A DNA stretch of 20,245 nucleotides, taken from positions 1 to 20,245 of the forward strand of contig DATJTD010000209.1 of NCBI GenBank assembly GCA_035503775.1, read 5' to 3'. The DNA is from Candidatus Acidiferrales bacterium (GTDB lineage Bacteria > Vulcanimicrobiota > Vulcanimicrobiia > Vulcanimicrobiales > Vulcanimicrobiaceae). A model generated the notes under the pieces. That model saw only the letters and a program-made list of their open reading frames with translations, did not search any database and was not told where the DNA came from. The position numbers and the translations under genes were made by a program. Each line of letters starts with the position of its first letter. Within the stretch, counting starts at the first letter, position 1. This document shows, piece after piece, positions 5,581 to 16,312 of this stretch.

Positions 5581-7764
5581 ATGCACACCACCACCGCCCC
5601 TATCGATAGTCTCATCGCCAAAGTCCGGACCTACGACCCGTCGGTCGACCCGGAGTGGCTGTACGCGGTCTACGAGCTGGCGGACCGGGCGCACGACGGC
5701 CAGTTGCGCGCCTCGGGCGAGTCGTACATCGAACACCCGGTCGCTGTCGCCCAAATCCTCGCCGACATGGAGATGGACAAGGCGACGATCGCCGCCGCCA
5801 TCTTGCACGACGTCGTGGAAGACACCGTCGTGACCGGCGAAGAGGTCGCGGAAAAATTTGGCTCCGAGATCGCTCAGCTGGTCGAAGGGGTCACCAAGCT
5901 CACGCGGATTCCCTATCAGTCAAAGGAAGATGCCCAGGTCGAAAACCTGCGCAAGATGTTCCTGGCGATGGCGAAAGACATCCGCGTCATCATCATCAAG
6001 CTCGCCGACCGCTTGCACAATATGCGGACCTTGGCGAGCCTGCCGCCTGCCAAGCAGCAGACGATCGCCAAAGAGACGATCGAGATCTATGCGCCGATCG
6101 CCCACCGCTTAGGCATCTGGAAGATCAAGTGGGACCTCGAAGATCTCGCTCTGCGCTATCTCGACCCCGACGCCTACCGTGACATCTCCGACCGCGTCGC
6201 CAAAAAGCGCGCCGAACGCGAGGCATCGGTCACCAGCGTCGTCGAGCAGTTGCGCCGGCAGTTCGAAAAACTCGGGATCAAAGCCGACATCACCGGGCGC
6301 CCGAAACACTTCTACTCGATTTACTCGAAGATGCGCAAGGGGCGCGACTTCTCGACGATCTACGATCTCACCGCCGTGCGGATCATCGTCGACTCGGTCA
6401 AGGATTGTTATGGTGCGCTCGGTATCGTGCACTCGTTCTGGAAGCCGCTTCCAGGCCGGTTCAAAGACTACATCGCGATGCCCAAGCCCAATATGTACCA
6501 GTCGCTGCACACCACGGTGGTCGGGCCGGGCGGCGATCCGCTCGAAGTGCAGATTCGGACGCTCGAGATGCACCGCACCAGCGAATTCGGCATCGCCGCG
6601 CACTGGCGGTACAAAGAAGGCGGAAAACTCGACAACTTCGAGGAGAAGCTGACCTGGCTGCGCTCGTTGCTCGAGTGGCAGAACGACATGCGCGACTCGC
6701 GCGTCTTCATGGAGAACCTCAAGCTCGATCTCTTCGATTCGCAGGTCTTCATTTTTTCGCCCAAGGGCGACGTCTTTTCGATGCAGTCGCGTGCGACGCC
6801 GCTCGACTTCGCCTATCACGTGCACACGGGCGTGGGCAATCACTGTGTCGGCGCGAAGGTCAACGGGAAGATCGTGCCGCTCGATTACGAGCTGCACAAC
6901 GGTGACATCTGCGAGATTCTAGTCAACAAGAGTTCGCGGCCGTCGCTGGGCTGGCTCTCGATCGTGCGCACCTCGAGTGCCAAGCACAAGATCAAACAGT
7001 ACTTCCGCAAAGAGCGCAAAGAAGAGAACGTGCTCATCGGCCAAGAGGCCGTCGAACACGAACTGGCGCGCCAGCATTTGCGACCGGATGCGGCACGCGG
7101 CGAGATCATCGAGAAAATCGCCAAGCGTTTGAATTACGCGACGGTCCCCGACCTGTTTGCGGCCGTCGGGTTTGGCGATGCGTCGGCCGTTTCGGTGGTT
7201 ACCCGGCTCAAAGAGGAACTCAAAGCGGACAACGTCGTGGAACTCTCGGCGCTGCAACGCTTGCCGACGGCGCCGCGGCGCGTCTCGCGCAACGCTAGCG
7301 GCGTGCGCATCGCGGGCGTCGACGACGTGCTCGTGCGGCTCTCGAAGTGTTGTAGCCCGGTGCCGGGCGATCCGATCATGGGCTACGTTACGATCGGCAA
7401 GGGGGTCTCGGTGCACCGTGCGGATTGTCCCAACGTTGCGTACATGAGCAATATGCCCGAACGTATCTTACAAGCCTCGTGGGGCCAGCTCGACGAACTC
7501 ACGCACGCGGTCGACGTCGAAGTCGAAGCGATGGACCGCCCGGGCCTCCTCCAAGAAGTGATGGCCGTCTGCGCCGAGTTCAAGACCAACGCATCCTCGG
7601 TTACCGCGCGCACCAAGCGGGACAAGACCGCACTCGTCAGTCTCACCTTGCAGATTCGCGACCTCGACCATCTGCACCGAGTGATCGAGAAGTTACGCAC
7701 GATCAAAGATGTGCGCAACGTCTACCGCGCGACCAAACGCGAAGCACGGGTGAGCGGCGGCTAA
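5581..7764 (+). CDS. rel: Bifunctional (p)ppGpp synthetase / hydrolase of the RelA/SpoT family
   Basis: HD hydrolase motif (ILHDVVEDT), synthetase region (RIKWDLEDL...GRPKHFYSIYSKM...YQSLHTTV), TGS region (VFIFSPKGDV) and a C-terminal ACT region. 727 aa. Confidence 0.95.
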   Translation: MHTTTAPIDSLIAKVRTYDPSVDPEWLYAVYELADRAHDGQLRASGESYIEHPVAVAQILADMEMDKATIAAAILHDVVEDTVVTGEEVAEKFGSEIAQLVEGVTKLTRIPYQSKEDAQVENLRKMFLAMAKDIRVIIIKLADRLHNMRTLASLPPAKQQTIAKETIEIYAPIAHRLGIWKIKWDLEDLALRYLDPDAYRDISDRVAKKRAEREASVTSVVEQLRRQFEKLGIKADITGRPKHFYSIYSKMRKGRDFSTIYDLTAVRIIVDSVKDCYGALGIVHSFWKPLPGRFKDYIAMPKPNMYQSLHTTVVGPGGDPLEVQIRTLEMHRTSEFGIAAHWRYKEGGKLDNFEEKLTWLRSLLEWQNDMRDSRVFMENLKLDLFDSQVFIFSPKGDVFSMQSRATPLDFAYHVHTGVGNHCVGAKVNGKIVPLDYELHNGDICEILVNKSSRPSLGWLSIVRTSSAKHKIKQYFRKERKEENVLIGQEAVEHELARQHLRPDAARGEIIEKIAKRLNYATVPDLFAAVGFGDASAVSVVTRLKEELKADNVVELSALQRLPTAPRRVSRNASGVRIAGVDDVLVRLSKCCSPVPGDPIMGYVTIGKGVSVHRADCPNVAYMSNMPERILQASWGQLDELTHAVDVEVEAMDRPGLLQEVMAVCAEFKTNASSVTARTKRDKTALVSLTLQIRDLDHLHRVIEKLRTIKDVRNVYRATKREARVSGG

Positions 7765-7988: not shown

Positions 7989-8034
7989 ACTCTCTGAGCG
8001 CATTCCGTGGCCTCGGACGCGGCCGATCAAAACG

Positions 8035-8059
8035 AATTCGCATTTTCGATTCGCGAAAA
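8035..8059. repeat. Hairpin motif copy B: AATTCGCATTTTCG-ATTCG-CGAAAA, a perfect 6-bp inverted repeat TTTTCG/CGAAAA with a 5-nt loop.
   Basis: Direct repeat of copy A about 270 bp away. Together they bracket the A/T-richer intergenic segment that carries the LexA-like box. Confidence 0.3.
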
Positions 8060-8154
8060 CTAAAGGCGACCGAGGCGCTCTATTCCGTCTTCGCTTTTTG
8101 ACGTAACACGGCGCCGACGCGAGCGGTACGATGTGTTAAAGGAGTCGTTAAAAA

Positions 8155-9042
8155 ATGTTTGACAAGGCTAGAAGTGTGACGTCTTACCGGGCGGCGGTAC
8201 AGCCTTTTCCATTCGCGGTATTTGTTTTCGTGATTTCCGCTACCGCCGGAACGTATTGGCTCACGCAATCCGTCGCCGTCGCCGTGACGGGGGCCGTCGT
8301 CGCGGTCATCCTCGGCTGCGGCTTGAAAGTCGTGAACGCGTACGATCGTGGAGTCGTCTTTCGCTTCGGGCGCTTCGTTCGCGTGCTGGAGCCAGGCCTC
8401 GGGTTCGTCATCCCGATCGTCGAATCGCTTGTTGCGGCAGTCGATATGCGCGTGCGTACCACACGTATCGTTGCGGAACACACGCTTACCAAAGATGCCA
8501 TTCAGGTGAACGTGAGCGCCGTCGTTTTCTGGCGAGTCGTGGATTCTCAGGCAGCGTTGCTGGCCGTGGCGGATTACGCAAACACGTTGGATCTCGCCGC
8601 GCAGACGGGCTTGCGTGAACTGATCGGCAAGTCGATTCTCAGCGAGCTTTTGAGCAACCGAGCCGCACTCGATCTGGAGCTGCTGCACGAACTTAGACCG
8701 CGCACAGCGGAGTGGGGTGTCGAACTCTCCGCGGTCGAGATTCGTGACGTCGAGATTCCGGATTCGCTGCAAAACGCCATGTCGCAGGAAGCGCAAGCCG
8801 CCCGCGAGCGCGCGGCAAGACTCATCCTTGCGCTCGCAGAGAAAGATGCCGCACAAACGTTTCTCGATGCGGCCGCCCTCTACGAAAAGGCTCCGATCGC
8901 GCTGGAGTTGCGGCGCATGAACATCCTGTATGAAGGACTCAAAACCGACAACACGAGTATCGTCGTCATTCCAAGTTCGATTCCGTCGTCGATGTCTACC
9001 ATAACAGGCCTAGCCGCGCTCGCTGCCGGCGAAGGGCGGTAA
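8155..9042 (+). CDS. SPFH / band-7 (stomatin/prohibitin-like, HflK/C-like) membrane protein
   Basis: N-terminal TM segments, then an SPFH core (VVNAYDRGVVFRFGRF...VDMRVRTTRIVAEHTLTKDAIQVNVSAVVFWRVVD) and a coiled-coil tail. AGGAG lies 9 nt upstream of ATG 8155. Confidence 0.8.
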   Translation: MFDKARSVTSYRAAVQPFPFAVFVFVISATAGTYWLTQSVAVAVTGAVVAVILGCGLKVVNAYDRGVVFRFGRFVRVLEPGLGFVIPIVESLVAAVDMRVRTTRIVAEHTLTKDAIQVNVSAVVFWRVVDSQAALLAVADYANTLDLAAQTGLRELIGKSILSELLSNRAALDLELLHELRPRTAEWGVELSAVEIRDVEIPDSLQNAMSQEAQAARERAARLILALAEKDAAQTFLDAAALYEKAPIALELRRMNILYEGLKTDNTSIVVIPSSIPSSMSTITGLAALAAGEGR

Positions 9043-9608
9043 GGCAAAAGAGAAGGGACTGGTAGCGGGCTTCGAGCTGTCCTAGCGCGGACGACGGAGG
9101 ACGTCAAAGACTCCGCGAGTGGTAGCCGGAACTCGGGAAGCGCCGGATGCGTCAGCGTCTCGCCTTCTTGGAGAAGATGGTGTCCGGCCGTATCGCACGC
9201 GAGGATCGTGCGCTCGATCGGATCGACGATGAAGACGGCGTCGGCTCCCGCGGCCAGATTCGCCTCGACCTTGTGGTCGATATCGGCTTGATGGTCATCG
9301 GGCGAACGCACTTCGAAGGCGGCGTTCGGTGGGACGAGCGGTGCTTCGAGTCCATCATCGCTTGCGCTGCCCATGCGCTCGTGCGAAAGAAAGGCAACGT
9401 CGGGTGCGAGCGGCCGAATCTCGTCCCCGGGAGGCGCGATACGGAATCGCCACTCCGTGCCGACTTCGCCCCGGCCCCGGCCCCACGTCAGCAGTCGGTG
9501 CACGAGCTCGCCCTGGAGCAGGGCGTGCCTGCGCTTCGGGTTCACTCTCTGGACTGCCCGTCCCGTGATCCACTCCAGGCCGAGGAGGGGCCGGAGCAGG
9601 TTCCGCAC
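8880..9608 (-). CDS. Uma2-family (DUF820) putative endonuclease
   Basis: QGELVHR near the N-terminus, and PLVPPNAAFEVRSPDDHQADIDHKVEANLAAGADAVFIVDPIERTI, the Uma2 PD-(D/E)xK-like core with the WxVDP-type motif. GTG start. About 50 aa of non-conserved C-terminus runs into the SPFH 3' end, giving a 163-bp convergent overlap. Confidence 0.6.
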   Translation of the reverse strand: MRNLLRPLLGLEWITGRAVQRVNPKRRHALLQGELVHRLLTWGRGRGEVGTEWRFRIAPPGDEIRPLAPDVAFLSHERMGSASDDGLEAPLVPPNAAFEVRSPDDHQADIDHKVEANLAAGADAVFIVDPIERTILACDTAGHHLLQEGETLTHPALPEFRLPLAESLTSSVVRARTARSPLPVPSLLPYRPSPAASAARPVMVDIDDGIELGMTTILVLSVLSPSYRMFMRRNSSAIGAFS

Positions 9609-9748
9609 TTGCTAGGCGTTGGCTGTGCGTGATATGGTAGCTGGGTTTCCCGGACGAGCGCTGCTCGTGACGGGGCGTCTACCCGCTGCTCCCCCGTCGC
9701 GAGGAGCCTTCGGCCGGCCGGCCGATGTCCGCAGAGGGATCGAATGTC

Positions 9749-10042
9749 ATGCCTACGGCTTACGAAGTCACCTATATCGTCCGTCCGAGCCTCGAGGAGG
9801 CCGATGTCGACGCCAAAGTCACCCAGATCGCCGGCACGCTCAGAGAGAATGGCGCCGAGGTGGTGGGCGAGATCGAGAAGTTGGGCAAGCGCCGCTTGGC
9901 CTACGAGATCAACGATATGCGTGAGGGGTACTACGTCGTCATGAAGTTCAACGGCGACGCCGCCCAAGCCAAGGAGCTCGAGCGTCAACTCGGTTTGAAC
10001 GAAGACGTGATGCGTGCGCTCCTCATCAAACTCGACACGTAA
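9749..10042 (+). CDS. rpsF: 30S ribosomal protein S6
   Basis: MPTAYEVTYIVRP...KLGKRRLAYEINDMREGYYVVMKF is typical of S6. It lies directly upstream of ssb. Confidence 0.85.
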   Translation: MPTAYEVTYIVRPSLEEADVDAKVTQIAGTLRENGAEVVGEIEKLGKRRLAYEINDMREGYYVVMKFNGDAAQAKELERQLGLNEDVMRALLIKLDT

Positions 10043-10057
10043 ACTGGGAGGCATATC

Positions 10058-10486
10058 ATGGCCGGAAGCTACAATCGGATCACCCTCGTCGGCAACCTGA
10101 CGCGCGATCCGGAGATTCGTTATCTCTCCAGCGGTTCGGGCGTCACGAAGTTCGCGCTCGCCGTGAACCGCAAAACCAAGCAAGGCGATGAGACGATGTT
10201 CATCGACGTCGTTGCCTGGGACAAACTCGGCGAGATCTGCAACACGTACCTGAAGAAGGGCATGTCGGTCCTGGTCGAAGGGCGTCTCTCGATCCGCAAC
10301 TACGACGACAAAGAAGGCGTGAAGCGCAAAGCCGTCGAGGTCGTGGCGAGCGATATGCAGATGCTCGATAGCAAGCGTTCCGGCGGCGCCAACGGCGAGT
10401 TCGGCGGAGCCCCCGCCGCCACACGCGGTGCGTCGGTTGGTGCGGATTTCGACCAGGAAGCAATGGACGACGAGATTCCGTTCTAG
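10058..10486 (+). CDS. ssb: Single-stranded DNA-binding protein
   Basis: OB-fold N-terminus (NRITLVGNLTRDPEIRY...), a Gly-rich linker and the acidic tail DDEIPF. GGGAGG lies 6 nt upstream. Confidence 0.9.
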   Translation: MAGSYNRITLVGNLTRDPEIRYLSSGSGVTKFALAVNRKTKQGDETMFIDVVAWDKLGEICNTYLKKGMSVLVEGRLSIRNYDDKEGVKRKAVEVVASDMQMLDSKRSGGANGEFGGAPAATRGASVGADFDQEAMDDEIPF

Positions 10487-10492
10487 CGTTCC

Positions 10493-10807
10493 ATGGACGA
10501 CGAAGTACAGGCAAAGATTTTTCGATTGCTCGATGTCATTTCGATCGAGGTGGCGGCGAATCGCAGCGAAACCTCTGCACTTCGCAGCGAAACCACCGGA
10601 CTACGCAGTGAAACCGCTGGACTGCGCAGTGAGACCGCTGGACTACGCGACGAGATGCGTAGCGGTTTCAGCCGCGTTGATCGCCGCCTTTGGCGTCTCG
10701 AAACCCGTGTTGAGAACGTTGAGACGGAGCTCCAGAGCGTAAAGGGCGAGCTCCGATCGTTTCGCCATGAATTCGAGCGCCGCATCGCGCCACTCGAGGC
10801 GCCCTGA
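10493..10807 (+). CDS. Hypothetical coiled-coil protein with heptad repeats ALRSET / GLRSET
   Basis: 104 aa. It starts 6 nt after the ssb stop with no own SD, so it may be translationally coupled. Four to five 7-aa repeats are encoded by 21-bp tandem repeats. The whole protein is predicted coiled coil. I recognise no family. Confidence 0.5.
   Translation: MDDEVQAKIFRLLDVISIEVAANRSETSALRSETTGLRSETAGLRSETAGLRDEMRSGFSRVDRRLWRLETRVENVETELQSVKGELRSFRHEFERRIAPLEAP
10562..10666 (+). repeat. 21-bp imperfect tandem repeat array, about 5 units of CGCAG(C/T)GA(A/G)ACC(N)CTG(G/C)ACT(N).
   Basis: Units sit at 10562, 10583, 10604, 10625 and 10646. The last is degenerate. They encode the heptads. Confidence 0.6.
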
Positions 10808-11095
10808 GGTCAGCGACGAGTTCGTTGCGAATCGTCCCGGCCGCGGCGCGCTCACCTCGCGCGAAACCGCCCGGCTGGAGCGTTCGTTGGCTCCTGCATT
10901 CGCCTCGCGCATGTCTTTACGATGGCCGAAACAGCGTAAGCATTCGGGAGTAGTTTGTACAGCGTACCACACGCGGCAGAACTTCCCTCTGCGTAATCGG
11001 TGGGAGCAACCGTCATCAAGCTCACGGCGCAAGGTTACCGTCAGCGCTACTGTTAAAACGATACAGGGTCATGAATGTGACAAACTGGAGTCATT

Positions 11096-14000
11096 GTGGC
11101 AACGTGCGATGATACCTACCTGTCTCGACTAACAGATTATTGGCGCCGCATCCAAGTTGCTGCTGCACTCGAGGGCCTGAAAGACGAGCGCGATGGCATC
11201 GATGAAGAAGAGCAGCAAGAAAAAATCATTCGAGCGCCGTTTTCGTACAGAGAATTCGAATCCGGAACCTGCCCTGTTGTGCTCTACACGCAAGCCTTTG
11301 CGAAGCTCGATCGTGAGCGGGAGCTCGCCTACCAGAGAGCGCTTGAGCGGAACCCCAATGCGGAAATGCTGGCGGCTACGCAGCACATTCCGGTGGTGTT
11401 TAGCCCCTTCGCACTGGCAATGCCGGGCGAGCGCGACCTCATACATGTTCTCTTCGGCTGTGCCCTCGTAGATCGGAACGGAAAGATGAGCGTCGGAGAC
11501 ATCGAATCCGATCTTCCCGCTATATGGGTTGGTCGCGACCATCTTTCTCCTAGTGACGGCATCGAGGATGGCTTCTTTCCGCTCGCTGGAGCCGATGCGT
11601 ACAGCGAGGCGATTGCTGCGAAATTACGTAATCTGGGAACGTGGCCTGAAAATTGGGGTGCAATGCTTCGAGCATTCACCGAGATATGGGAAACCGCGGC
11701 AGCGAGTCGTGGCGGTTCGCAAGCCATACCATTATACGGTGCGCTGAGTACCCATTACGACGTAAAGCCTGGATGGATCCGTTTTGAGAAAAAAGACCCG
11801 AAGCGTATCGACATAGTTCGCATGTACGAAAAGCTGCAAGAACGTATCGTTGCAAAGCGCGTGCCCTCACTTTATCGCGAAGTGGCTCTAAGTGAACATG
11901 ACAACGTTTTCGATCGGCGGCGCGGAGAGATGCACCTCGGGCAAATGGGCGGCAAAAATCCTCTTGCCCCATCTCAACGTGACTCGTTGCTCGCGTACCT
12001 CCAGACTCCGGAATATCACGTTACCGCTATCAACGGCCCTCCTGGAACCGGCAAAACAACGCTTCTGCAAAGCGTGCTCGCTACTGAACTTGTGGCAAGT
12101 GCCCTGAGACAGGGCGATCCGCCGCTCTATTTGGCGGTTGCTGCAACAAATCAGGCCGTCTCCAACATCATCGCGGCATTCCGCGAAGCGACCGACGACC
12201 TCGATCATCCGCTCGCAGATCGTTGGATTCCGGGCTTGAAACGCCGCTACGGTGCGTATTTCAGAGGTTCGAGAGGCGAAGCCAAAAGACTCTCGCGGGG
12301 ATCAATCGTTTGCATCCCCCTTCAATTCAACAGCCATGCTAAAGAATACAAAGCAGACGACATAGAGCGACTTCGGCAAGACGTAGAAATTAAAAACCAG
12401 GTTGGCGACGAGGTCGCCGTGGATTTGTTCCTCCCCCTTGCTGAGTCACCGGCTGTGGTTGCCGCGTTTCTGGAGACGGCGGGCAGCGCGTTAGGTAAGT
12501 CGTTCGAAACGCTAAGTGCGTTTTTGTGCGACATACACGAGACTCTCAAAAATCTCACCGACCAGATTACGGAATACGCAAAGGCCGCAGATATCTTCAT
12601 GGAAGAAATCGAAAGAATCGGAGCTCTGGAATTCGGTAACGTTCGTGCTGCTAGAGAAGCTTTTAGCTCGCGCGTAAGAGAGGCCGAAGAGCAGTACCGT
12701 GAAGTTGCGATATCTATTTCACTTGAGTGCCGCGCAGAAGAGGACGGCGAGGCTGCCCTTCGCAAGGAAGAGGATCATCGGCTTGGGGAGTTCGATGCAA
12801 ATGAGGCCGCCATTGAGCGGGCGATCGCCATTGCTGAAGACGAACGGATTGCCGCCAAAAGGTCACGATTCGATGTTCTTAAGCTAGCGCGAGAGTCATA
12901 CGAAACTCTGCGTCCGCCGGCGACTCTGTTTGGATGGCTTGTCGAGGCGTTGTTTCCCTGGGTACGAAACCGTAAGCAAAATAAGCTGAGAGACCTAGCC
13001 GTGTTCGTCAGAAGCAACGAGAAGGTGACGTTGGGAACGAGCGTCGACAGTTTACGCGCGTTCATAGAAACGGCACTCGTCGAGTTGAATGATCTTGAGA
13101 TCGTTCGAGAAAACATCGCGGCAGAGTACGATAAGCGCCGTCGTCTACGCGATGAGCAGCGCACTCATGTAGTCAGGAAAATCGAAAATATGCGCCGAAG
13201 CCGCGAATTAGAGCGTATGGCGCGGGATGTGCCGCGAAAGGCGCATCTTCTCGAGAAGAAAAATACGTTAGACGCGGCACTTTATGCCGTGCAATCTCTT
13301 GACATGGCTCATTTGAGACTTGAGAGGTTGGATCCCGACTTTAGTTCTAACGAGTTTCCGCCATTTGAGACGGTTCGTGGGCGAATAGATACGACATTTA
13401 GACTCAAAGCGTTTCTTCTGGCTTCCCACTACTGGGAAGGCCGCTTTCTCCAAGATGCTCCAAAGAGCGGATGGCGGGCGCAAGCGAACCGCCGGAGGGC
13501 GTTTAGGATCCTGGCGATGCTAACACCTTGTTTCGTGAGTACGTTCGATAAACTCGGTACTTCGTTTAACATCATGAAGAGCGGAGAGACGCATCCACTT
13601 TGGGAATTCGCAGACTGTCTGATCGTCGATGAAGCTGGACAGGCGTCTCCCGACAAGGGGGCATTCGCATTTTCATTCGCAAAGAAAGCTATTGTCGTGG
13701 GCGATGAGCTGCAACTACCGCCCGTCAATGCGAGCGATTCGGTAACTATTCTTACGAGCGTCGCCGCTTCTGCCGGATTCCTTGAAGATGAATTCGCGGC
13801 AGATCATGGATTGCTCGCGGGCCAAGTCGGAATCCAAAAAGGACCTGGGAGTATAATGCGTATGGCATCCTCGTCGGCCTATTTTCATGCCAGTGAAGAG
13901 GCGCGCGGCATGTGGTTGCGGGATCATTTTCGATGCGATCCGCGGATTATTCGGTACTCGAATGAAATCTGGTATACCGGACAAACCTCGCTCGTACCGC

Positions 14001-14533
14001 GAAGGCCTAGACAAGAGGGCCTTCCGCTCCCGCATTTCGGCCATATGCATGTCTCAGGCAAGGCTACGAACCGGTCAAACAGAGCAGAAGCACTGTCGAT
14101 TCTGCACTGGATTAATGCTTTCGGTAAGGCGCTCGAGGATCACTACGGTATTCCGCTTCATGAAATAATTGCTGTACTAACTCCATTTAAGAATCAGAAA
14201 ACTACGTTACAAGACCTAAGAGATAAGACGTTTCGCTGGAACCGTGTGTACGCTATGCCTAGCGGCATAACGATGGGAACAGTTCATGCGTTGCAGGGCG
14301 CCGAACGTCCGGTCGTTCTATTTTCGACGGTTTATGATGAGCCCAACTCACGATATTTCTACGACGCGGAGCACACGATGCTGAACGTTGCAGTTTCGCG
14401 GGCCAAAGATTCGTTCATTGTATTTGGCAACAGAACCATTTTTGTTTCCGGCCAACCGGAGATTAGCAAACCTTCGACGGTCCTTCGCAGGCACATATTC
14501 GATGCCGCACTGAGACCGGTTCCACGCTTGTGA
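11096..14533 (+). CDS. Large (1145 aa) Upf1/DNA2-like SF1B helicase (Pfam AAA_11 + AAA_12 type) with a ~310-aa N-terminal domain of unknown function and a ~480-aa coiled-coil insertion between motifs Ia and II. Probable defence-island protein.
   Basis: Motif I AINGPPGTGKTTLL (12035-12058), Ia LAVAATNQAVSNI, II LIVDEAGQA (13619-), III IVVGDELQLPPV (13691-), IV RIIRYSNEIWY, V TVHALQGAERPVVLFS, VI LNVAVSRAKDSFIVFGN. The start is GTG 11096, with GGAG 5 nt upstream. The gene is visibly more A/T-rich than the surrounding genes. Confidence 0.8.
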   Translation: MATCDDTYLSRLTDYWRRIQVAAALEGLKDERDGIDEEEQQEKIIRAPFSYREFESGTCPVVLYTQAFAKLDRERELAYQRALERNPNAEMLAATQHIPVVFSPFALAMPGERDLIHVLFGCALVDRNGKMSVGDIESDLPAIWVGRDHLSPSDGIEDGFFPLAGADAYSEAIAAKLRNLGTWPENWGAMLRAFTEIWETAAASRGGSQAIPLYGALSTHYDVKPGWIRFEKKDPKRIDIVRMYEKLQERIVAKRVPSLYREVALSEHDNVFDRRRGEMHLGQMGGKNPLAPSQRDSLLAYLQTPEYHVTAINGPPGTGKTTLLQSVLATELVASALRQGDPPLYLAVAATNQAVSNIIAAFREATDDLDHPLADRWIPGLKRRYGAYFRGSRGEAKRLSRGSIVCIPLQFNSHAKEYKADDIERLRQDVEIKNQVGDEVAVDLFLPLAESPAVVAAFLETAGSALGKSFETLSAFLCDIHETLKNLTDQITEYAKAADIFMEEIERIGALEFGNVRAAREAFSSRVREAEEQYREVAISISLECRAEEDGEAALRKEEDHRLGEFDANEAAIERAIAIAEDERIAAKRSRFDVLKLARESYETLRPPATLFGWLVEALFPWVRNRKQNKLRDLAVFVRSNEKVTLGTSVDSLRAFIETALVELNDLEIVRENIAAEYDKRRRLRDEQRTHVVRKIENMRRSRELERMARDVPRKAHLLEKKNTLDAALYAVQSLDMAHLRLERLDPDFSSNEFPPFETVRGRIDTTFRLKAFLLASHYWEGRFLQDAPKSGWRAQANRRRAFRILAMLTPCFVSTFDKLGTSFNIMKSGETHPLWEFADCLIVDEAGQASPDKGAFAFSFAKKAIVVGDELQLPPVNASDSVTILTSVAASAGFLEDEFAADHGLLAGQVGIQKGPGSIMRMASSSAYFHASEEARGMWLRDHFRCDPRIIRYSNEIWYTGQTSLVPRRPRQEGLPLPHFGHMHVSGKATNRSNRAEALSILHWINAFGKALEDHYGIPLHEIIAVLTPFKNQKTTLQDLRDKTFRWNRVYAMPSGITMGTVHALQGAERPVVLFSTVYDEPNSRYFYDAEHTMLNVAVSRAKDSFIVFGNRTIFVSGQPEISKPSTVLRRHIFDAALRPVPRL

Positions 14534-14953
14534 TGCACCGCTAAATGGCTCCACGTTAACTCGACGAAGACGATCTCGCGCTGGCACCTGGCGCGTGGGC
14601 TTGTTCGGTCTAGGGAGTCTGCGCGACGCGGTCGTCCCGCTTACGCTGCGTCAGGACTCCGTGAATCGCGAGGTGATGCGGACACCAATGAACTCGGATG
14701 ACTGCGCCTCCGCGAGATACTGAGACGCATCCGCACCCGAGTTCAACAGATGCGAGTTTTTCAGTGATGGACCGAGCGGCGACATCTTTCCGTCTTTGTC
14801 GTACGGCCGAAATCGAGTTTGCCATGGTGGTCCTCCGCCAACACCTATTGTAGCGACAACGTAAGCCGCCGTGAAGCAAGGAGAGAGGCCACTATCGCCA
14901 AGGCAGTAAGCGACGGCGGTGCCTTACTCGCTCGTGCACCGAAGGAGGCTCCG

Positions 14954-15091
14954 ATGAAGCACCATGAGCCGACCAACGCCAAGCCGGGTGGATCGTTCTT
15001 GTGCGCCGTGGCATGGTCGAGGGAATCGATCCGCCGCGCTTCCGCGGCCGGCTCAATAACGATCAACGACACGCACCTTACTGCAGTCTAG
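14954..15091 (+). CDS. Candidate small ORF (45 aa) with a perfect Shine-Dalgarno sequence
   Basis: AGGAGG lies exactly 5 nt upstream of ATG 14954. The peptide is MKHHEPTNAKPGGSFLCAVAWSRESIRRASAAGSITINDTHLTAV. It sits in an otherwise non-coding ~590-bp gap. Confidence 0.25.
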   Translation: MKHHEPTNAKPGGSFLCAVAWSRESIRRASAAGSITINDTHLTAV

Positions 15092-15124
15092 TCGGCACCG
15101 CTTGGTTCGGCGGCCGGTTCGTGA

Positions 15125-16096
15125 TCAGCGCCGGTAGCCACCGCCACGGTAACTGCGGTACCCTAACGCGGCGCGGCCATAATAGGGATGCCCCGACCAA
15201 CGCCAACCGGCATAGAAACGCGGCCAGAAGACCGGTGCATACGGGTACGGCGGGTAGAACACCACCGGGGCTGGTGCGACGATGACGTAGGCCGATGGAG
15301 CGTATTCGGGCACGGCATAACTGGGAAGGGCGTTGTCGGGCACAGCATAGCTAGGAAGCTGTTGATATGAGGGCGGCTCAGGCTGCGGCGCTTGCACCGG
15401 CGGAGGAAGCGGAGCTTCGGGTTGGGCCGGCTCTGGCGCTTGTGCGACCGGTCCCGGCGGGGTTGCATCGGCAATTCGATCGCGGTCGGCGTTCCACGAA
15501 TCGAAATCATCTGCGGCGATCTCGTCGAGGGTCTTGAAATGCGTGGTGTCGCCTGCTCCGCTTGCGGCGAAGGTGCTGCCGGGATCGAGTACTTGATCGA
15601 ATTTTCCCGCCGCGACGTACGTCCGTCCGGCGCGGACGGTGACTTGCGTCGAGTCGTCGTCGAGCACGCTGATACGATAGGCTCCCGCGTGAATCGGGTC
15701 GATCGTCAGCGACGGCGTCTGGATATCCGGATACGTCGCGGCGTCGTGCACGACGCGCAGTTCGATCGTGCCCTCGTCGACCACCAACGCACGGCTCTCG
15801 GTATCGATGTCGTCGAACCGAACCTGCGTATTCGAGCTCAGGCGCAGCATCACGTTCGAATCGAACTGGACCTCCGCCCGCCCATCGTGCGTGGTGAGGT
15901 AGTCGCCTGGAGCGAGCGACGTGTTGACGGTCACCGCCTCCGGCGTTCCATCGTCACCGTGTTGAAAATCGACGTTGCCGTCGACGGCGCTTACCTGCGC
16001 GGAGCCCGTCGACTGTGCGTGCGCCGGCGCTGCGGCAAATGAAAAGAGAAGCACCGGCAAAGCCAGCGCGACTCGACAAAGCATCGAACCGTTCAT
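15125..16096 (-). CDS. Secreted FecR-domain-like protein with a Pro/Tyr/Arg-rich C-terminal low-complexity tail
   Basis: ATG 16096 with GGAGG 8 nt upstream. Signal peptide MNGSMLCRVALALPVLLFSFAAAPAHA. The beta-rich segment GDYLTTHDGRAEVQFDSNVMLRLSSNTQVRF...LVVDEGTIELRV resembles a FecR domain. The tail is PSYAVP...YPPYPYAPVF...GYRSYRGGGYRR. Confidence 0.55.
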   Translation of the reverse strand: MNGSMLCRVALALPVLLFSFAAAPAHAQSTGSAQVSAVDGNVDFQHGDDGTPEAVTVNTSLAPGDYLTTHDGRAEVQFDSNVMLRLSSNTQVRFDDIDTESRALVVDEGTIELRVVHDAATYPDIQTPSLTIDPIHAGAYRISVLDDDSTQVTVRAGRTYVAAGKFDQVLDPGSTFAASGAGDTTHFKTLDEIAADDFDSWNADRDRIADATPPGPVAQAPEPAQPEAPLPPPVQAPQPEPPSYQQLPSYAVPDNALPSYAVPEYAPSAYVIVAPAPVVFYPPYPYAPVFWPRFYAGWRWSGHPYYGRAALGYRSYRGGGYRR

Positions 16097-16312
16097 CCTA
16101 GAGGCCTCCAGCCCGTTGGGGCTCACAACACGATTATCGACAGAAATGCTTGAAAACATCCTGGCCCCTGCCTACTTGAAACGCCCGGCGACCTTTGCTA
16201 CCCGCGTTCGCCGCCGCTCGATCCATAGCTGACGGCGACAAGAAATCGAAGATCTGCAAAAGTGCTGCTTTACGGCGGAGTGGAGGTAGGCGCAATGTAA
16301 GGAGACCCGGCC

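What the first reader, a model, noticed from the sequence alone, without database searches (positions are those of the whole stretch)
10487..15124. Foreign-looking island after ssb: a giant Upf1/DNA2-like helicase with a novel N-terminus, a possible uncharacterised defence system
rpsF and ssb are normally followed by rpsR and rplI. Here ssb is instead followed by a coiled-coil repeat gene, a 288-bp spacer, a 3.4-kb gene that is conspicuously A/T-richer than every flanking gene, and a ~590-bp non-coding gap. The large protein has the complete set of SF1B Upf1-like motifs (GPPGTGKT, DEAGQ, GDxxQLPP, V, VI). Its first ~310 aa match nothing I recognise, and only ~30 aa follow motif VI. An atypically composed, large helicase with an unknown fused domain, inserted into a housekeeping locus, is the signature of anti-phage defence proteins such as Nhi-like nuclease-helicases or Mokosh/Hhe-type helicases. 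I cannot assign this architecture (unknown N-domain, split ATPase with a giant coiled coil) to any named system.
Basis: partly seen in the sequence, partly recalled or inferred. Interest (0 to 1): 0.8.

Follow-up and report, generated by a model that had tools for sequence, protein, structure and literature searches.

The report
Mokosh-type helicase lacking its nuclease
A horizontally acquired 1145-residue helicase beside the ribosomal-protein/ssb genes of an uncultured soil bacterium is a rare relative of the single-gene anti-phage protein Mokosh type II. It keeps that protein's whole body but lacks the PLD nuclease domain that Mokosh needs to defend.

Summary
Their meaning changes in four ways.

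- **The helicase belongs to a named family.** The ORF at 11096..14533 matches PADLOC's MkoC profile (Mokosh type II) at E=6e-182. The match runs from the N-terminus to just past helicase motif VI.
- **The N-terminus is not novel.** The "novel" N-terminus and the giant helical insertion are standard MkoC features.
- **The PLD nuclease is missing.** This domain defines Mokosh. The protein stops about 40 residues after motif VI. Nine other proteins (38-57% identical) stop at the same point, so this is a conserved, rare clade and not a truncation.
- **The foreign segment is smaller than proposed.** It is essentially this one gene (about 10.9-14.55 kb; GC3 0.54 against 0.68-0.82 in host genes). The coiled-coil ORF after ssb is a native gene: in related Eremiobacterota the order is rpsF-ssb-cc-rpsR-rplI.

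Clade members sit in variable neighbourhoods rich in defence genes and mobile-element fragments.

My best reading is a nuclease-less Mokosh II variant that acts against phages or mobile elements through its ATP-driven Upf1-like motor, alone or with a partner encoded elsewhere. The identity is secure. The function is inferred. It is a new variant of a known kind, of moderate interest.

The parts
11096..14533 (+). PLD-less MkoC-like (Mokosh type II-like) SF1B/Upf1-like helicase, 1145 aa. GTG start with GGAG 7 nt upstream.
   Evidence: PADLOC MkoC PDLC03924 E=6e-182, protein 10-1137 against profile 6-966/1136. Pfam AAA_11/AAA_12. Homologues P0002-P0009 cover 98-100% of it, and P0002's MARRDD.. 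N-terminus supports the start codon. A second gene call starts at the same codon in L096. GC3 0.54.
11096..11905 (+). N-terminal alpha/beta domain (aa 1-270), shared with canonical MkoC. No recognisable catalytic motif; probably a binding or sensor module.
11906..12211 (+). Linker with the HLGQM motif, plus the first half of RecA1 with Walker A GPPGTGKT (12035..12058; K320).
12212..13519 (+). About 440-aa helical insertion that splits RecA1, forming a giant stalk/coiled coil (helices 473-507, 516-586, 650-745).
   Evidence: Full-length AF2 model, pLDDT 89.6, pTM 0.82. The insertion is also present in canonical MkoC, where it is somewhat shorter.
13520..14440 (+). Second half of RecA1 (Walker B DEAGQ at 13628..13642; motif III GDxxQLPP) and RecA2 (motif V LQGAER; motif VI NVAVSRAK at 14384..14407).
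   Evidence: Foldseek's top PDB hits are SETX/Sen1, Upf1, Aquarius, IGHMBP2, Dna2 and ZNFX1. phmmer against PDB gives IGHMBP2, SETX and UPF1.
14441..14533 (+). Short C-terminal tail (KPSTxLRxHLF helix) followed by the stop codon. This is where canonical MkoC continues into the PLD domain.
   Evidence: Alignment A1: nine clade members end here, while PLD-bearing MkoC continue about 170 aa with HNK..D..EGSFNW. Canonical P0013 hits MkoB/DrmC PLD profiles at 989-1121; the window protein does not.
10808..11095 (+). Spacer upstream of the helicase. Synteny with relatives ends at its left edge, and GC falls from about 0.63 to 0.53 at about 10,900.
14534..15124 (.). Gap downstream of the helicase. Host-like GC, no credible ORF, no ncRNA family, no remnant of a PLD or of the partner gene seen in some homologous loci.
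10493..10807 (+). Native small coiled-coil protein (104 aa). It is context for the acquired segment, not part of it.
   Evidence: 39 homologues at 41-70% identity. Conserved ends with a variable number of heptad repeats. In L098/L099 the order is rpsF-ssb-cc-rpsR-rplI-lon-dnaB; the short contig L100 ends after rpsF-ssb-cc. DNA homology to L098 stops at its stop codon.
9725..10486 (+). rpsF and ssb, the left-hand host context.
   Evidence: Pfam Ribosomal_S6 and SSB. Syntenic with RelA in Eremiobacterota MAGs.

Best explanation
The ORF at 11096..14533 is a horizontally acquired single gene in a Candidatus Eremiobacterota genome.

**What it is (shown).** It encodes a member of the MkoC (Mokosh type II) helicase family. 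It keeps the family's N-terminal domain, its Upf1-like SF1B motor and the giant helical insertion in RecA1. It lacks the C-terminal PLD nuclease. It belongs to a small, rare, monophyletic clade in which every member lacks the PLD and has all ATPase/helicase motifs intact.

**How it most likely works (inferred).** It is an anti-phage or anti-mobile-element protein. The N-domain and stalk recognise a foreign nucleic-acid intermediate: RNA, an RNA/DNA hybrid or ssDNA, as hypothesised for Mokosh. ATP-driven 5'->3' translocation then provides the effect without an in-cis nuclease. This could happen by unwinding or stripping replication or transcription intermediates. Alternatively the helicase could hand the substrate to a protein encoded elsewhere.
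For: **Identity**
- PADLOC MkoC 605 bits, E=6e-182, over profile 6-966/1136.
- Canonical MkoC P0013 gives 1168 bits over 7-1135, plus a PLD (MkoB/DrmC) hit that the window protein lacks.
- Alignment A1 shows shared N-domain invariants and the common end point of nine clade members.
- All helicase motifs are invariant.
- The AF2 model and Foldseek place the core with Upf1, Sen1, IGHMBP2 and ZNFX1.

**A conserved clade, not a truncation**
- P0002-P0009 and L101 are 38-57% identical, 1136-1171 aa, with no PF13091.
- They form one clade in an NJ tree.
- Among 1.84 billion cluster representatives only 4 are full-length relatives, plus 3 fragments. The score then drops from 825 to 393 bits.

**Foreign origin**
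- GC3 is 0.54 against 0.68-0.82, and the low-GC block is about 10.9-14.55 kb.
- The gene is absent after ssb in every related locus.
- Helicase GC3 is also below that of housekeeping neighbours in L006, L009 and L092.

**Defence or mobile context of clade members**
- SIR2+HerA, PIN_8 and an integrase fragment.
- ResIII plus a methyltransferase.
- DUF4238.
- Integrase and transposase fragments.
- IrrE-like, DUF6791-ThiF and DUF6527.

**Family function.** Mokosh defends against phage and needs its helicase ATP site (Millman et al. preprint 10.1101/2022.05.11.491447).
Against: - In canonical Mokosh the PLD active site is required for defence. A PLD-less protein therefore cannot work the same way.
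- No effector was identified. The N-domain has no conserved catalytic residues and no structural match.
- No PLD gene lies in the window, in the 27-kb source contig or in any of the homologous loci.
- In this window the neighbours are ordinary genes, not a defence island.
- No mobility gene, tRNA or flanking repeat marks the insertion.
- Function rests entirely on homology and context in ten loci, most of them short contigs.
Confidence: 0.5

Rival explanations
1. It is the sensor/motor half of a split system. The effector (a nuclease or other toxin) is a separate protein that is not adjacent here, as MkoA pairs with MkoB in Mokosh type I. In some lineages the partner may be the 459-487-aa protein of repeated wHTH-like units found next to the helicase.
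For: A homologous 459-487-aa protein with no Pfam match lies beside the helicase in three lineages: convergent and abutting in L002/L003 and L004, upstream in L005 (27-45% identity, E 2e-27 to 1e-121). It has weak PADLOC PDC-M05A hits. In L101 an HTH_36 protein is convergent and abutting. Nuclease-NTPase systems generally work as complexes (preprint 10.1101/2025.07.10.664194).
Against: The partner is absent from the window (no tblastn hit) and from L006, L009, L092, L093 and L101. It carries no recognisable nuclease domain. No PLD gene lies near any clade member.
Confidence: 0.2
2. It is a decaying or inactivated Mokosh type II gene that lost its nuclease by deletion and no longer functions.
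For: The PLD is required for canonical Mokosh defence. A 591-bp featureless gap follows the gene. PLD presence is patchy across the wider family.
Against: Ten members at 38-57% identity share the same C-terminal end point and keep every helicase motif and the N-domain invariants. The ORF is uninterrupted over 3.4 kb. There is no PLD remnant in the gap. The same sequence was assembled from two independent samples.
Confidence: 0.1
3. It is not an immune protein. It is a Upf1/Sen1-like helicase used for host RNA or R-loop metabolism, or by a mobile element for its own replication or transfer.
For: Its structural neighbours are RNA-quality-control and transcription-termination helicases. It lies next to ssb and, in L009, 4.5 kb upstream of rpsF-ssb. 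Transposase and integrase fragments lie nearby in L093, L094 and L005.
Against: Its distribution is sporadic and rare. It is absent from all related Eremiobacterota loci and has foreign composition. The best profile by far is a defence-system model. No close members are found on catalogued plasmids or phages.
Confidence: 0.12

Closest known systems
Mokosh type II, MkoC (e.g. the fused helicase-PLD protein of E. coli; Millman et al. 2022; PADLOC PDLC03924)
   Same: Homologous over the whole length up to motif VI. It shares the N-terminal domain (YWR, W144/R147/P152, HLGQM), the Upf1-like SF1B core, the large helical insertion in RecA1 and the post-motif-VI linker helix. It is a single large gene of about 130 kDa.
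   Different: It lacks the about 170-aa C-terminal PLD nuclease (HxKx4D..GSxN), whose active site is required for Mokosh defence. It scores 605 bits against the profile, while a canonical member scores 1168. It has a longer coiled coil and an extra segment of about 25 aa in the insertion. It forms a separate rare clade.
Mokosh type I, MkoA (helicase) plus MkoB (PLD)
   Same: The helicase and nuclease are not in one polypeptide, so a helicase-only protein is conceivable as one half of such a pair. The RecA2 region matches MkoA profiles (119 bits).
   Different: The MkoA match is confined to aa 840-1118. There is no kinase-like or NERD region. No MkoB/PLD gene lies nearby in the window, the source contig or any homologous locus.
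Eukaryotic Upf1-like helicases (UPF1, SETX/Sen1, IGHMBP2, MOV10/MOV10L1, ZNFX1)
   Same: The same SF1B fold, with accessory domains inserted in RecA1. Several act on foreign or aberrant RNA without an in-cis nuclease, which is the working model proposed here.
   Different: Only the motor core is alignable (10-20% identity). The N-domain and the giant stalk have no counterpart.
Other single-protein helicase defence systems (Hhe, Nhi/Nhi-like, ProA, PLuB helicase-like protein)
   Same: Large defence proteins that share SF1 motor motifs with this one.
   Different: Profile matches are marginal and far below the family cut-offs: Hhe 25.7 bits against 2000, ProA 32.5 against 1500, PLuB 56.8 against 999, and no Nhi hit. 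All of these carry their own nuclease or other effector domains.

Membership tests
Mokosh type II (MkoC) | Upf1-like (COG1112, SF1B) helicase core with intact motifs I-VI | tested here: met
   Pfam AAA_11/AAA_12. Motifs are invariant in 51 homologues and were read directly. Foldseek's top hits are SETX, UPF1 and IGHMBP2.
Mokosh type II (MkoC) | Full-length homology to the MkoC profile, including the N-terminal domain and the RecA1 insertion | tested here: met
   PADLOC PDLC03924 E=6e-182, protein 10-1137 against profile 6-966 of 1136. N-domain invariants are shared with PLD-bearing MkoC.
Mokosh type II (MkoC) | C-terminal PLD-family nuclease domain (HxKx4D) in the same polypeptide | tested here: not met
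   No PF13091 hit. Profile positions 967-1136 are unmatched. The alignment ends about 170 aa before canonical members. There is no PLD motif apart from a non-conserved chance HAKEYKAD at aa 414. There is no remnant in 14534..15124.
Mokosh type II (MkoC) | Confers phage resistance that depends on the ATP-binding site and the PLD active site | not testable with these tools
   Requirement taken from Millman et al. preprint 10.1101/2022.05.11.491447.
Mokosh type I (MkoA + MkoB) | MkoA-type helicase with additional kinase-like region | tested here: not met
   MkoA profiles match only aa 840-1118 (119 and 79 bits). There is no kinase or NERD Pfam hit.
Mokosh type I (MkoA + MkoB) | Adjacent gene encoding a PLD nuclease (MkoB) | tested here: not met
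   No PLD-family gene among the genes called on the 22.9 kb of the 27.4-kb source contig that was read, in the window ORFs scanned, or among neighbours of the nine other clade members.
Hhe / Nhi-like / ProA / PLuB helicase defence proteins | Score at or above the family profile cut-off | tested here: not met
   NCBIfam: Hhe 25.7 bits (cut-off 2000), ProA 32.5 (1500), PLuB 56.8 (999). PADLOC: Hhe E=0.009, no Nhi hit.
Genomic island / horizontally acquired gene | Atypical composition and absence from the same site in related genomes | tested here: met
   GC3 0.54 against 0.68-0.82. The low-GC block spans about 10.9-14.55 kb. There is no helicase after ssb in 28 Eremiobacterota loci or in L098-L100.
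Genomic island / horizontally acquired gene | Mobility signatures (integrase, tRNA target, flanking direct repeats) and a defined empty site | tested here: not met
   No tRNA and no flanking repeats. No integrase or transposase domain matched in any window ORF scanned, nor in the precomputed Pfam lists for the called genes. The right flank (FecR, DUF1275) is not syntenic with any relative, so no empty site could be reconstructed.

The most novel reading that the evidence does not exclude
The PLD-less MkoC clade is a distinct immune (or anti-mobile-element) system. In it, a Upf1-like motor with the Mokosh sensor apparatus protects the cell without any nuclease. This would be a bacterial counterpart of helicase-only eukaryotic antiviral factors such as UPF1, MOV10 and ZNFX1. 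In some lineages it may act together with a previously undescribed protein of repeated wHTH-like units.
Probability: 0.25. Interest if true: 0.65.

Novelty: new variant of a known kind. Interest (0 to 1): 0.42.

Why it matters
Mokosh is defined by a helicase plus a PLD nuclease, and both activities are needed for defence. It is also discussed as a possible prokaryotic ancestor of the MOV10L1/PLD6 piRNA module.

A conserved clade that keeps the entire sensor and motor body but has no nuclease gives a natural separation-of-function variant. It could show what the helicase half does on its own: sensing, clearing nucleic-acid intermediates, or recruiting other factors.

There is also a practical warning. 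Profile-based annotation will probably label such genes 'Mokosh type II' although the defining effector is missing. The MkoC HMM hit is very strong and covers 85% of the profile.

The case also shows that a small repeat-bearing ORF next to a foreign gene need not belong to it.

Tried and rejected
- **PLD remnant or frameshifted PLD in the 591-bp gap.** Translations and tblastn with neighbours and partners found nothing.
- **Small ORF in the gap.** I first read one by eye on the minus strand, starting at 14826. Translation showed stop codons, so I dropped it.
- **The coiled-coil ORF as a partner of the helicase.** It has no homologue in any helicase locus. It is instead a native neighbour of ssb.
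- **Reconstructing an empty insertion site.** RelA-anchored loci from 28 Eremiobacterota genomes and exact look-ups of ssb were tried. The only other contig carrying this ssb is the same sequence from another sample. The right flank is not syntenic anywhere.
- **A defence hot spot downstream of ssb in the phylum.** The genes there are ordinary: AHSA1, redoxin, GNAT, CdsA, an esterase and others.
- **Carriage on known plasmids or phages.** Only distant MkoC-like hits at about 35% identity.
- **Other signals.** No Rfam family in the window, and promoter/terminator scans were at chance level.
- **Literature on PLD-less Mokosh.** None found.
Full report
**1. What is in the sequence**

The window has about 62% G+C.

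- *Host genes on the left.* Pfam confirms rpsF (9725..10042) and ssb (10058..10486).
- *Coiled-coil ORF.* Seven bases after the ssb stop lies a 104-aa ORF (10493..10807). It carries four copies of a 21-bp repeat, which encode heptads of the type LRSETxG.
- *Helicase ORF.* After a 288-bp spacer comes a 3438-bp ORF (11096..14533, 1145 aa). It has a GTG start with GGAG 7 nt upstream.
- *Gap and right flank.* A 591-bp stretch follows, then a convergent FecR-domain gene (15125..16159).
- *Composition.* The big ORF has GC 0.53 and GC3 0.54. Eleven flanking genes have GC3 0.68-0.82. A 200-bp sliding profile puts the low-GC block between about 10,900 and about 14,550.
- *No rpsR or rplI* in the window.

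**2. Host and neighbourhood**

RelA (5581..7764) is 73-83% identical to RelA of Candidatus Eremiobacterota (Vulcanimicrobiota/Baltobacteraceae) MAGs.

- *Conserved synteny.* The order PRT-RelA-[variable]-rpsF-ssb is conserved in that phylum.
- *rpsR-rplI after ssb.* These follow ssb in only three of the RelA-anchored loci: L016, L033 and L039.
- *Other loci.* Elsewhere the genes after ssb are unrelated ordinary genes.
- *Helicase and right flank.* No relative carries the helicase, FecR or DUF1275 there.

**3. The coiled-coil ORF is native**

- It has 39 homologues at 41-70% identity. They share conserved N- and C-terminal blocks and differ in the number of heptads.
- In L098/L099 the homologue begins 8 nt after ssb and is followed by rpsR-rplI-lon-dnaB; the short contig L100 carries it in the same place and then ends.
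- DNA similarity between the window and L098 runs through rpsF, ssb and this gene, and stops at its stop codon.

The foreign segment therefore starts after 10807 and is, in effect, one gene. There is no tRNA, no flanking repeat and no integrase. An exact look-up of ssb returned only the same sequence from a second sample, 100% identical over 4415 nt. No empty site could be reconstructed.

**4. Identity of the large protein**

- *Core.* Pfam sees only the SF1B core, AAA_11 and AAA_12.
- *MkoC match.* PADLOC's MkoC model (Mokosh type II) matches at 605 bits, E=6e-182. The match is one stretch covering protein residues 10-1137 and profile positions 6-966 of 1136.
- *Canonical comparison.* A canonical member, P0013, gives 1168 bits over 7-1135. 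It also hits MkoB/DrmC PLD models at 989-1121, and Pfam PLDc_2 at 994-1094.
- *Alignment.* Eighteen sequences were aligned. The N-terminal domain is shared: Y15 W16 R17, G57, G129, P141, W144, R147, P152, W183, Y244 and the HLGQM motif. The large insertion between motifs Ia and II is also shared.
- *End point.* The window protein and its eight closest homologues end about 30-40 residues after motif VI. PLD-bearing MkoC continue for about 170 residues with HNK..D..EGSFNW.
- *Chance motif.* The only HxKx4D string in the window protein (HAKEYKAD, aa 414) lies in the insertion and is not conserved.
- *Other families.* Hhe, ProA, PLuB and RecD2 models score far below their cut-offs, and Nhi gave no match.

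**5. Structure**

- *Full-length model.* The AF2 model (51-sequence alignment; pLDDT 89.6, pTM 0.82) shows four parts. These are an alpha/beta N-domain (1-270), RecA1 split by a helical insertion of about 440 residues with helices of 35, 71 and 96 residues, RecA2, and a short terminal helix.
- *Core neighbours.* Foldseek's best PDB matches are SETX/Sen1, UPF1, Aquarius, IGHMBP2, Dna2 and ZNFX1. A sequence search of PDB agrees.
- *No catalytic set.* No acidic or His/Lys residue within aa 1-270 is invariant or nearly invariant across the family; the first such residue, H280, lies in the HLGQM linker.

A hidden nuclease in the N-domain is unlikely. A binding or sensor role is the simplest reading, and that is inference.

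**6. A conserved, rare clade**

- *Close homologues.* P0002-P0009 are 38-57% identical, cover 98-100% of the query, are 1136-1171 aa long and carry no PLDc_2. A metagenome scan added one more, L101, at 41% identity.
- *Rarity.* Among 1.84 billion cluster representatives, only four are full-length single-stretch matches, plus three fragments. The score then falls from 825 to 393 bits. In all, 880 proteins reach E <= 1e-30.
- *Tree.* In a neighbour-joining tree of 120 relatives the window protein and P0002-P0009 form one clade. PLD presence is patchy elsewhere in the family.

All motifs and 230-odd positions are invariant within the clade. This argues against a dead gene.

**7. Contexts of clade members**

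| Locus | Neighbours |
|---|---|
| L005 | SIR2_2 + HerA-like, PIN_8, DUF5710, integrase fragment |
| L004 | ResIII helicase + N6/N4 methyltransferase |
| L006-L008 | DUF4238 |
| L092 | Two AAA_24 genes |
| L093, L094 | Integrase and transposase fragments |
| L101 | HTH_36, IrrE-like, DUF6791-ThiF, DUF6527 |
| L009/L010 | 4.5 kb upstream of another Eremiobacterota-like rpsF-ssb pair |

- *Composition.* Helicase GC3 is below that of housekeeping neighbours in several of these loci.
- *Possible partner.* A 459-487-aa protein with no Pfam match accompanies the helicase in three lineages. It is absent from the window and the other loci.
- *No PLD gene* lies near any member.

**8. Mechanism**

*Shown:*
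- a foreign, intact, conserved MkoC-type helicase without a PLD;
- a Upf1-like motor;
- an N-domain of unknown fold that is shared with Mokosh II.

*From the literature:*
- Mokosh comprises a COG1112 RNA helicase and a PLD nuclease.
- Type II is a single protein with the helicase N-terminal and the PLD C-terminal.
- Mutating either the ATP site or the PLD site abolishes defence.
- E. coli Mokosh II behaves as a monomer and protected only against an ssDNA phage in one panel (10.1101/2025.07.10.664194).

*Inferred:* the clade keeps the sensing and translocating apparatus. It acts either through the motor itself, as UPF1, MOV10 or ZNFX1 do without an in-cis nuclease, or by engaging a protein encoded elsewhere. 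I put about 0.5 on a defence role with nuclease-independent or trans-assisted action.

| Rival explanation | Weight |
|---|---|
| Strict split system | 0.2 |
| Non-immune helicase | about 0.12 |
| Decaying gene | 0.1 |

**9. Comparison and novelty**

The protein is homologous to MkoC but fails the defining PLD criterion. It should not be filed as Mokosh type II, although profile-based annotation will probably call it that. It is not type I either: the MkoA match is confined to RecA2 and there is no MkoB. I found no paper describing PLD-less Mokosh helicases.

Verdict: a new variant of a known kind, of moderate interest. Its claims of a novel N-terminus, an unassignable architecture and a two-gene island are not supported.

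Noticed in passing
window 10493..10807; L098 6001..6270, L099 2153..2422, L100 1684..1953: A small coiled-coil protein family (75-108 aa in most members, up to 150) with conserved ends (QAKILxLLDVISVEVAANR ... RVDRRLGNLETRVENVETE ... ELRSFRxEFERRIAPLE). The number of heptad (21-bp) repeats between them varies. In some Eremiobacterota it sits immediately after ssb and before rpsR-rplI. Its function is unknown. The repeat-number variation resembles a contingency or length-variable locus.
   Followed up: partly
window 8880..9608 (- strand) versus 9147..9632 (+ strand): The minus-strand ORF is a Uma2-family (PF05685) putative endonuclease, with homologues in L013 and L052. The source assembly's gene call instead lists the overlapping plus-strand 161-aa ORF, which has no family hit and is probably spurious.
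   Followed up: partly
window 11096..11662; L001 10001..12871: The public gene call for the helicase (P0001, 956 aa) starts 189 codons too late. Homologues and a second assembly (L096) support the GTG at 11096. Two minus-strand ORFs called over the missing N-terminus and the upstream spacer (window 10643..10912 and 11129..11542) are likely artefacts.
   Followed up: yes
L009 3..3452 and 7996..8891 (also L010): A 47%-identical clade member lies 4.5 kb upstream of rpsF-ssb in another Eremiobacterota-like contig (ssb 76% identical). So the helicase sits near the same housekeeping pair twice, on opposite sides. This may be coincidence, or the surroundings of rpsF-ssb may be a variable region in this phylum. 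RelA-to-rpsF spacing ranges from 0.2 to 8 kb.
   Followed up: partly
L002 6102..7481 (-), L004 13594..15057 (-), L005 5718..7097 (+): A 459-487-aa protein with no Pfam domain and internally repeated wHTH-like units, with a weak PADLOC PDC-M05A hit. It is adjacent to the PLD-less helicase in three lineages, and in two of them it is convergent and overlaps or abuts the helicase stop. It may be a partner or regulator.
   Followed up: partly
window 12335..12358 (aa 414-421): HAKEYKAD literally fits the PLD signature HxKx4D. It lies in the helical insertion and is not conserved in any homologue, so it is a chance match that could mislead motif scans.
   Followed up: yes
L101 10303..13421: Next to another clade member lie an IrrE-like M78 peptidase, a DUF6791-ThiF (E1-like) protein and a DUF6527 protein. 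This looks like a ubiquitin-like conjugation defence operon and supports a defence-island setting.
   Followed up: no
L012-L036, L039 (regions after ssb): rpsR-rplI follow ssb in only 3 of the roughly 20 RelA-anchored Eremiobacterota loci that contain ssb. The classical rpsF-ssb-rpsR-rplI operon is therefore frequently broken in this phylum, independently of the helicase.
   Followed up: partly
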